In this document: piece after piece, positions 63,593 to 64,000 of the stretch | How the letters are laid out: each line of letters opens with the position of its first letter | Numbering within the stretch: position 1 is the first letter of the stretch | Assembly: GCA_004431415.1 (NCBI GenBank) | Contig: QPMI01000535.1 | Coordinates: forward strand, 310,001-374,000 | DNA length: 64,000 bases | Source of the DNA: Cyanophora paradoxa CCMP329 | Taxonomy: Eukaryota > Plantae > Glaucophyta | Direction: 5' to 3' | Notes under the pieces: generated by a model | What the model was told of the DNA's origin: nothing | What the model saw: the letters and a program-made list of their open reading frames with translations, nothing else | The model's database searches: none | Translations under genes and position numbers: made by a program

Positions 63593-63975
63593 CTAGGCCT
63601 TATCGATCTGGCTATCCTTATCACTGTCAGGCTTGATGATCTTCGAGATCTCTCCGCGAATGCGGCGTGCAAGTTGAATGTCCTTCGGCATGATAGTGAC
63701 GCTGCAACGGAAAACGATCAGAGGATTGCAGGATATGACAAAAAGCAAGTTGGCTCACCGTTTAGCATGAATCGCGCACAGGTTAGCATCTTCGAACACT
63801 CCCACCAGATAAGCCTCGGCGGCAGTCTGGATCGCCAGCATGGCGTGCGACTGGAAGCGCAAGAGGGGATTAATGTCCTGAGTGATCTCGCGAACGAGTC
63901 GCTGGAATGGCAGCTTGCGAATCAGGAGATCCGTGGTCTTCTGGTACTTGCGGATCTCGCGCAACGCCACAGTGC
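63593..63975 (-). CDS. H3: Divergent histone H3 (H3.3-like), last two exons 63975-63759 and 63701-63593; 5' part outside window
   Basis: [107 protein letters not shown]. 57-nt GTGAG...TTGCAG intron; another TGCAG acceptor at 63976. Confidence 0.93.
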
Positions 63976-64000
63976 CTGCAATCGTGATAATTAGATGAAA

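What the first reader, a model, noticed from the sequence alone, without database searches (positions are those of the whole stretch)
63593..64000. A Polinton-like virus that appears to carry a spliced, remodelled histone H3
Seen: an H3 with spliceosomal introns lies ~550 bp from the pPolB start. No complement of the left terminus occurs before it, and the missing 5' exons of the interrupted calmodulin-like gene have not reappeared. Its introns are ~50% GC, unlike the C-rich host introns. The protein has H3.3-like SHAML, has lost K79 (QDFKTD to QDINPL), has QEA to QTA, and carries a new tail [18 protein letters not shown]. Inference: the histone is element cargo, transcribed in the nucleus. 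It could act as a modification-resistant or dominant variant to escape silencing, or package the viral genome. Histones are known in giant viruses; I am not aware of an intron-bearing H3 in an element of this size class.
Basis: partly seen in the sequence, partly recalled or inferred. Interest (0 to 1): 0.9.

Follow-up and report, generated by a model that had tools for sequence, protein, structure and literature searches.

The report
Polinton-like virus carrying spliced histone H3
A spliced histone H3 gene with an intact DNA-wrapping core and, in two matching gene models, a rebuilt tail that lacks both classic silencing motifs lies beside the polymerase gene of a small virus integrated in an alga's genome, is likely carried by that virus, and may give it chromatin that the host silences poorly.

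Summary
A two-intron H3 lies at 63593-64000 (minus strand), 542 bp from the polymerase of an rve-integrase Polinton-like virus whose left end splits a calmodulin-like exon at 43103. No right end, target duplication or host exon precedes it. The 108 visible residues are identical to two gene models that EukProt labels Cyanophora paradoxa, on different contigs of a probably haploid genome. These supply the missing N-tails: K4, K36 and K37 stay; both ARKS motifs, S10, S28, K14, K23 and G34 are lost. The two tails differ at 12 of 42 positions, the cores at 0 of 108. Core changes avoid conserved columns (51 of 52 kept). Short-read contigs hint at two copies, both joined to the element's repeat array. 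Other H3 genes of this genome share both intron sites and GC3 is intermediate, so this looks like an old host capture. Not shown: the element's right end, the second copy's neighbours, expression, function. Cargo about 85%; a silencing-resistant nucleosomal variant about 50%. Single viral H3s are known; my searches found none in Polinton-like viruses.

The parts
63593..63701 (-). H3 last exon: end of R116 codon, alpha3 helix, 18-residue C-terminal extension, stop
   Evidence: identical to the ends of P0135 and P0136
63702..63758 (-). 57-nt GT-AG intron, phase 2 in R116, with CTGAT branch-like motif
   Evidence: another H3 of this genome has an acceptor at the same site
63759..63975 (-). H3 middle exon, G44-R116 (alphaN to alpha2; loop 1 DINPL; SHAML; QTA)
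63976..64000 (-). 3' end of upstream intron, phase 1 in G44; the N-tail exon(s) lie beyond the window
   Evidence: another H3 of this genome has an acceptor at the same site
63146..63582 (.). spacer array between H3 and pPolB: six ~37-nt units and two 155-nt copies; not an inverted terminal repeat
59829..63051 (-). protein-primed PolB, split into three ORFs in the window; all contigs laid in four runs carry an extra base at both breaks
   Evidence: (table 4)
58554..59741 (-). rve integrase
   Evidence: rve_3, E 2e-8
56464..57219 (+). A32-like packaging ATPase
   Evidence: Pox_A32, E 1e-9
55058..56446 (+). double jelly-roll major capsid protein
53142..55016 (.). two divergently oriented beta-rich ORFs, probable minor capsid proteins (inferred from position; no family hit)
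51667..52935 (+). patatin-like phospholipase
   Evidence: E 8e-26
45818..48874 (-). fibre-like protein with S74 chaperone domain
   Evidence: E 1e-16
43103..43160 (+). left terminus, beginning TGTTG, preceded by GACGGA
42368..43102 (-). 3' three exons of a host calmodulin-like gene, cut in mid-exon by the insertion (label from EF-hand likeness, recalled)

Best explanation
A spliced H3 gene sits between the left end of an integrated Polinton-like virus and its unseen right end, is likely cargo captured long ago from a host intron-bearing H3 gene, and is predicted to pair with host H4, H2A and H2B to form nucleosomes whose rebuilt tail host silencing enzymes would read poorly. Shown: gene structure, position, identity with two gene models, loss of both ARKS motifs in those models, conserved core. 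Inferred: that it moves with the element (about 85%); capture from the host (shared intron sites, intermediate GC3); transcription in the nucleus; deposition outside S phase through the plant-H3.3-like SHAML site; benefit to the virus by keeping its integrated or excised DNA open, most likely during reactivation. A cis preference for viral DNA is not shown; the protein may simply dilute marked H3.
For: Position: no inverted or direct likeness between the left end and the DNA before H3, no target duplication, no return of the calmodulin-like gene. Copy number: two EukProt models on different contigs match all 108 visible residues in a genome judged probably haploid (PMC6704402, passages). In run X1 the 3' piece 63574-63733 has depth 145.7 against 78-88 for pieces private to this element, as two copies differing near 63602 would give (139-156), and a variant repeat-array contig reaches 63589. 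Selection: 12 core changes against plant H3.3 fall on variable columns (mean conservation 0.70 vs 0.88 in 30 viral-contig H3s, p 2e-4); 51 of 52 highly conserved columns and 35 of 35 recalled contact residues are kept; splice signals are intact. Tail: 19 of 43 identical vs 78 of 90 in the core; no ARK[ST] in either model, against 21 of 30 viral-contig H3s that keep one. Origin: both intron sites are shared with other H3 genes of the genome; GC3 0.70 lies between the host gene (0.93, p 2e-6) and the element's replication genes (0.56, p 0.004). The element looks competent: pPolB is one frame in short-read contigs, and 21 of 23 tested sibling differences are synonymous. Precedent: bracovirus H4 enters host nucleosomes and acts through its tail (PMC9145170 section 6); some PLVs carry Tet-like demethylases proposed to counter silencing (10.64898/2026.06.19.733378, passages).
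Against: The right end was not seen, and only 47% of high-quality protist virus insertions have detectable terminal repeats (PMC10120064), so their absence before H3 is not proof. The neighbours of the two gene models are unknown: 0 of 20 element proteins were found by exact look-up, and one model may be this locus itself. In X1 only one contig covers 63744-63857 at 80% likeness, so the second copy's middle exon was not seen. pPolB depth (about 280-345 in X1) suggests more sibling elements than tailed H3 copies, and the tool warns that depth is no copy number. The other element in the window shows no H3. The N-tails are ab initio models of a genome whose authors warn that models need curation. 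K4 loses its ARTK context and G33-G34 become S-P, so activating marks may be lost too. No core PRC2 was found in this host and H3K27me3 was inconclusive (PMC5405695). E94T alters an invariant column.
Confidence: 0.5

Rival explanations
1. The H3 is cargo but serves as a charge-based packaging or condensing protein for the viral genome; the tail sequence is free to drift so long as it stays basic.
For: Tail charge is kept (14 and 11 K+R vs 14 in canonical H3) while motifs for both silencing and activating marks decay; the two tails differ at 12 of 42 aligned positions plus a 2-residue gap.
Against: No H4 or other histone among 19 element ORFs scanned, so packaging would need host partners; the gene sits by the replication module, not the capsid block; the other element in the window has no H3.
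Confidence: 0.15
2. The H3 is cargo aimed outward: a dominant, destabilising variant that disturbs host chromatin or that of a co-infecting giant virus rather than protecting the element's own DNA.
For: E94T at an invariant column, a fully changed loop 1 and a new C-tail; 57 viral contigs carry H3 relatives, many from giant-virus bins; several PLVs parasitise giant viruses; tail divergence between copies could reflect conflict (p 6e-8 against even spread).
Against: No giant virus of this host was identified here; DNA- and H3-H3 contact residues are intact; tail divergence may come from recombination or gene-model error.
Confidence: 0.13
3. The H3 is a host variant gene (like plant K27-less variants, recalled) lying next to an element whose right end was deleted or rearranged.
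For: Intron sites are shared with other H3 genes; GC3 is higher than in element genes; the host has about 12 H3 genes (PMC5405695 Table 1) and other divergent H3-like sequences appear in RNA-labelled contigs; right end unseen.
Against: Overall GC stays at 50% from pPolB to H3 with no step; contigs private to this element keep one depth from 61400 to 64000; the host gene expected here is the calmodulin-like 5' half; the second copy also abuts the repeat array (inferred).
Confidence: 0.12
4. The H3 is a neutral passenger picked up by the element and slowly decaying.
For: Many changes at modification sites; present in only some siblings by depth.
Against: Open frame and intact splice sites in the window and in two models; core changes avoid conserved columns; 0 of 108 core differences between copies whose tails differ strongly.
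Confidence: 0.1

Closest known systems
Single viral H3 histones (Talbert, Armache, Henikoff 2022, PMC9145170, section 9 read): Manila clam xenomavirus, Dishui Lake phycodnavirus, giant-virus MAGs
   Same: One H3 without partners; fold 73-87% identical to cellular H3 (here 78 of 90); altered alpha2 chaperone site; no S/T31; K79 lost as in Dishui Lake virus; divergent tail as in xenomavirus
   Different: Carrier is an integrating Polinton-like virus ('polinton' occurs 0 times in that review); the gene keeps spliceosomal introns; the tail has normal length but no ARKS motif; a C-terminal extension is added
Cotesia bracovirus H4 (PMC9145170, section 6 read)
   Same: Host-derived single histone in an endogenous DNA virus, conserved fold, fast-changing tail
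   Different: H4 with an extended tail that keeps its modification sites and acts in a second host; here H3 with sites removed, in a self-replicating 20-kb-class element
Endogenous Polinton-like viruses of Cyanophora paradoxa (Bellas et al. 2023, PMC10120064; Microbiome 2025, PMC12220804)
   Same: Capsid protein 64% identical to one listed in Bellas Table S2; pPolB, rve integrase, ATPase, lipase and S74 fibre are common in this set (156 glaucophyte elements in PMC12220804 Table S6)
   Different: No histone protein gene mentioned in the texts or supplement rows I searched; Bellas et al. called genes with a prokaryotic tool on the premise that these viruses have no introns
Plant replication-independent H3.3 (PDB 7ux9 chain E; P0180)
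   Same: Best PDB match; H87 in alpha2; intron-bearing gene
   Different: 24 of 43 tail residues, loop 1, E94 and the C-terminus differ

Membership tests
Endogenous Polinton-like virus | double jelly-roll major capsid protein | tested here: met
   model pTM 0.74 matches PBCV-1 capsid, E 9e-18, TM 0.61; 64% to P0001, listed as MCP in PMC10120064 Table S2
Endogenous Polinton-like virus | A32-like packaging ATPase | tested here: met
Endogenous Polinton-like virus | pPolB or primase-helicase, and rve integrase or tyrosine recombinase | tested here: met
   DNA_pol_B_2 E 6e-53, rve_3 E 2e-8
Endogenous Polinton-like virus | terminal inverted repeats, target duplication, 15-30 kb length | tested here: inconclusive
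   left end at 43103; at least 20.9 kb; right end off the window; no genome held
Single viral H3 | gene lies within the viral genome | tested here: inconclusive
   strongly implied; closing boundary unseen
Single viral H3 | histone fold 73-87% identical to cellular H3, chaperone site partly kept | tested here: met
   78 of 90; SHAML vs SHAVL
Single viral H3 | no other histone in the virus | tested here: inconclusive
   none among 19 ORFs scanned; spliced genes and the unseen part not covered
Centromeric H3 (criteria recalled; one search found no paper) | longer loop 1; Q68 and F84 replaced; fold only 50-60% identical | tested here: not met
   loop 1 of normal length, Q68 and F84 kept, 87% identity
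Centromeric H3 (criteria recalled) | divergent N-tail; T107 replaced | tested here: met
   (T107A; tail 19 of 43)
Plant-type H3.3 | H87 in alpha2 and introns | tested here: met
Plant-type H3.3 | S/T31 and canonical tail | tested here: not met
   A31 in P0135; tail rebuilt
Functional histone variant | expressed and incorporated into nucleosomes | not testable with these tools
   needs stranded RNA reads, proteomics, reconstitution

The most novel reading that the evidence does not exclude
A family of 20-kb-class integrating viruses has stolen a host H3 gene with its introns and turned it into an anti-silencing histone whose tail is being reshaped in conflict with the host: the first histone of the Polinton-like supergroup, and a sign that spliced cargo genes in these elements have been missed systematically by intron-blind gene calling.
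Probability: 0.35. Interest if true: 0.87.

Novelty: new variant of a known kind. Interest (0 to 1): 0.74.

Why it matters
How integrated Polinton-like viruses stay reactivatable in host chromatin is open; the counter-measures I found proposed so far act on DNA methylation. A virus-borne H3 without ARKS motifs would be a histone-level route, in a cultured alga with many DNA runs, and sibling elements that seem to differ in carrying it offer a natural control. It also contradicts the working premise that these elements lack introns, so published gene catalogues may miss a class of spliced, host-derived cargo.

Tried and rejected
No whole genome held, so the contig could not be extended. No RNA holder listed; two RNA-labelled runs laid only 36-60-nt pieces of other H3-like genes (4 and 2 contigs); this says nothing about expression. 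No relatives of the element in viral contigs or metagenome contigs. None of 57 viral H3 loci matched this element's pPolB, MCP or integrase within the DNA fetched; two matched the other element's ATPase weakly and one a minor-capsid-like ORF marginally. The first H3 search returned only tandem fusions in its best 120. Exact look-ups of 20 element proteins found none. An H3 tree (59 rows, 97 columns; 35 of the 57 viral loci, near-duplicates, fragments and the most distant left out) was unresolved and lacked the host's own H3s. The H3 monomer model was weak (pLDDT 65, pTM 0.46) and its fold search gave no hit at E 0.001. The spacer array as a right terminus: rejected, no likeness to the left end. 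Centromeric H3: rejected on loop length, Q68, F84 and identity. No H3-H4 complex job was sent: a textbook pair would pass by likeness. No phage match. The two contig names were not in the readable part of the Bellas supplement (file cut when stored) or in listed papers. The ESM Atlas did not answer.

Full report
Observation. On the minus strand the window ends in an H3 gene: 25 bases of an intron ending at 63976, an exon 63975-63759 (G44 to R116), a 57-nt GT-AG intron (46% GC) and a last exon 63701-63593 that adds 18 residues after GE. Both introns carry a CTRAT branch-like motif. The middle exon scores Pfam Histone at E 4e-27.

The element. From 43103 rightwards lie a fibre-like gene, a patatin lipase, two probable minor capsid genes, a major capsid gene, an A32 ATPase, an rve integrase and pPolB. 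The capsid model matches the PBCV-1 double jelly roll (E 9e-18) and is 64% identical to P0001, which EukProt labels Cyanophora paradoxa and which Bellas et al. 2023 list as a capsid protein (PMC10120064, supplement rows; 366 capsid hits in that genome). pPolB is split in three in the window, but every contig laid from four DNA runs has an extra base at both breaks, giving about 1075 codons; 21 of the 23 sibling differences I classed are synonymous. The left end cuts a calmodulin-like coding exon.

Is H3 inside? The terminal 9-mer occurs once in the window. The left 800 bp align with 62900-64000 no better than shuffles in either orientation. No target duplication or GC-rich host exon follows pPolB. 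The 540-bp spacer is a direct-repeat array. Contigs private to this element keep one depth from 61400 to 64000 (78, 85, 78, 88 in X1; 235, 241, 231, 227 in X17). The closing boundary is off the window and no genome was held; only 47% of such insertions show terminal repeats. I put cargo at about 85%.

More than one copy. A profile search found two EukProt models, P0135 and P0136, on different contigs, each ending in the same 108 residues as the window's spliced product; one may be this locus. The genome is judged probably haploid (PMC6704402, passages). In X1 the piece 63574-63733 has depth 145.7, which two copies differing near 63602 would give (139-156); a five-piece model reproduces all eight depth bins tested, though three pieces' ends were inferred by fit; a variant repeat-array contig of single depth reaches 63589.

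Origin. Loose ends show other H3 genes of this genome with acceptors at exactly the G44 and R116 sites but other intron sequence, one ending in GERT-stop; whether these are host or element genes I cannot tell. GC3 of the visible H3 is 0.70 (107 codons), between the host gene (0.93) and the replication genes (0.56). This fits capture of an intron-bearing host H3 as DNA and long residence in the element (inference). A protein tree was unresolved.

The protein. Against plant H3.3 (P0180), P0135 keeps 78 of 90 core residues but 19 of 43 tail residues. The 12 core changes fall on variable columns, five in loop 1; 51 of 52 highly conserved columns are kept, E94T being the exception, and 35 of 35 contact residues from a recalled list are kept. 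In the tail K4, K36 and K37 remain; P0135 keeps K9 and K27 but without ARKS context; P0136 has R at 9 and a rebuilt 18-31 segment; S10, S28, K14, K23 and G34 are gone. The two tails differ at 12 of 42 aligned positions, the cores at 0 of 108 (p 6e-8): conflict, recombination or model error. It fails the centromeric H3 criteria that I recall.

Mechanism. The simplest reading is a nucleosome-competent, replication-independent variant that host writers and readers of K9, K27, S10 and S28 would handle poorly (established H3 biology, recalled), made when the element wakes and keeping its DNA open. Bracovirus H4 shows that a stolen single histone enters host nucleosomes and acts through its tail (PMC9145170, section 6 read), and some PLVs carry Tet-like enzymes proposed to counter silencing (10.64898/2026.06.19.733378, passages). 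Caveats: activating contexts are damaged too, and PRC2 was not found in this host (PMC5405695, passages), so K9 or a general unreadability is the likelier target. Packaging, outward sabotage, a host variant and a neutral passenger remain as rivals.

Novelty. Single viral H3s are known, including one in a small DNA virus (PMC9145170, section 9 read), and 57 viral contigs here carry H3 relatives. I found no report of a histone gene in a Polinton-like virus in searches, or in term searches of PMC12721341, PMC12220804, PMC10120064, PMC12166617, PMC9145170, PMC13037468, 10.1101/809541, 10.1101/2022.12.26.521929, 10.64898/2026.10.09.758095 and 10.64898/2026.06.19.733378 (passages only). Bellas et al. 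state that these viruses have no introns and used a prokaryotic gene caller. Not seen and possibly relevant: the 2024 review PMC11426020 (not held), the cut part of the Bellas supplement, the genome paper's supplement and bioRxiv supplements.

Verdict. Real, probably viral cargo, a new variant of the known single viral H3; function untested. Interest 0.74.

Noticed in passing
window 1-~21000: A second rve-integrase Polinton-like element with D5 primase-helicase, a PolB with an endonuclease VII domain, HNH-AP2 and RING genes; capsid 36% identical to the first. No H3 match in it.
   Followed up: partly
window 61689-61691 and 62270: The two pPolB frame breaks are absent from all short-read contigs laid, so they are probably long-read errors. 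A similar single frame shift splits a gene near 45230, not checked against reads.
   Followed up: partly
window 63917-63977 (runs X21, X24): RNA-labelled contigs hold other, very divergent H3-like sequences that match only around GTVALREIR and then read NSLISYAPFA or NALIRYAGFA, and one [13 protein letters not shown] type (loose ends, translated by eye).
   Followed up: no
window 63639-63686 and 63878-63963 (run X1, record 7): A 772-nt contig of another H3, 86% alike with four of four listed changes synonymous, appears to align 11 bases into the novel C-tail; it may be a more distant tailed family member.
   Followed up: partly
window 63432 and 63277, minus strand: TGTAA, the green-algal polyadenylation signal (recalled), once in each 155-bp repeat downstream of the H3 stop.
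   Followed up: no
window 21021-21033: A two-mismatch match to the spacer repeat core lies just past the last gene of the other element; may be chance (1.3 matches expected).
   Followed up: no
window 22300-30100 and 39750-40350: Complex satellite of 149-bp and about 1180-bp units, with inverted partial copies 10 kb away; short inverted-repeat elements at 13690-13940, 22000-22230 and 30600-30820.
   Followed up: no
window 49246-49704 and 45818-51642: 36-nt tandem repeats encoding His-rich units in an 873-aa ORF, which shares a motif with the start of the neighbouring fibre gene.
   Followed up: no
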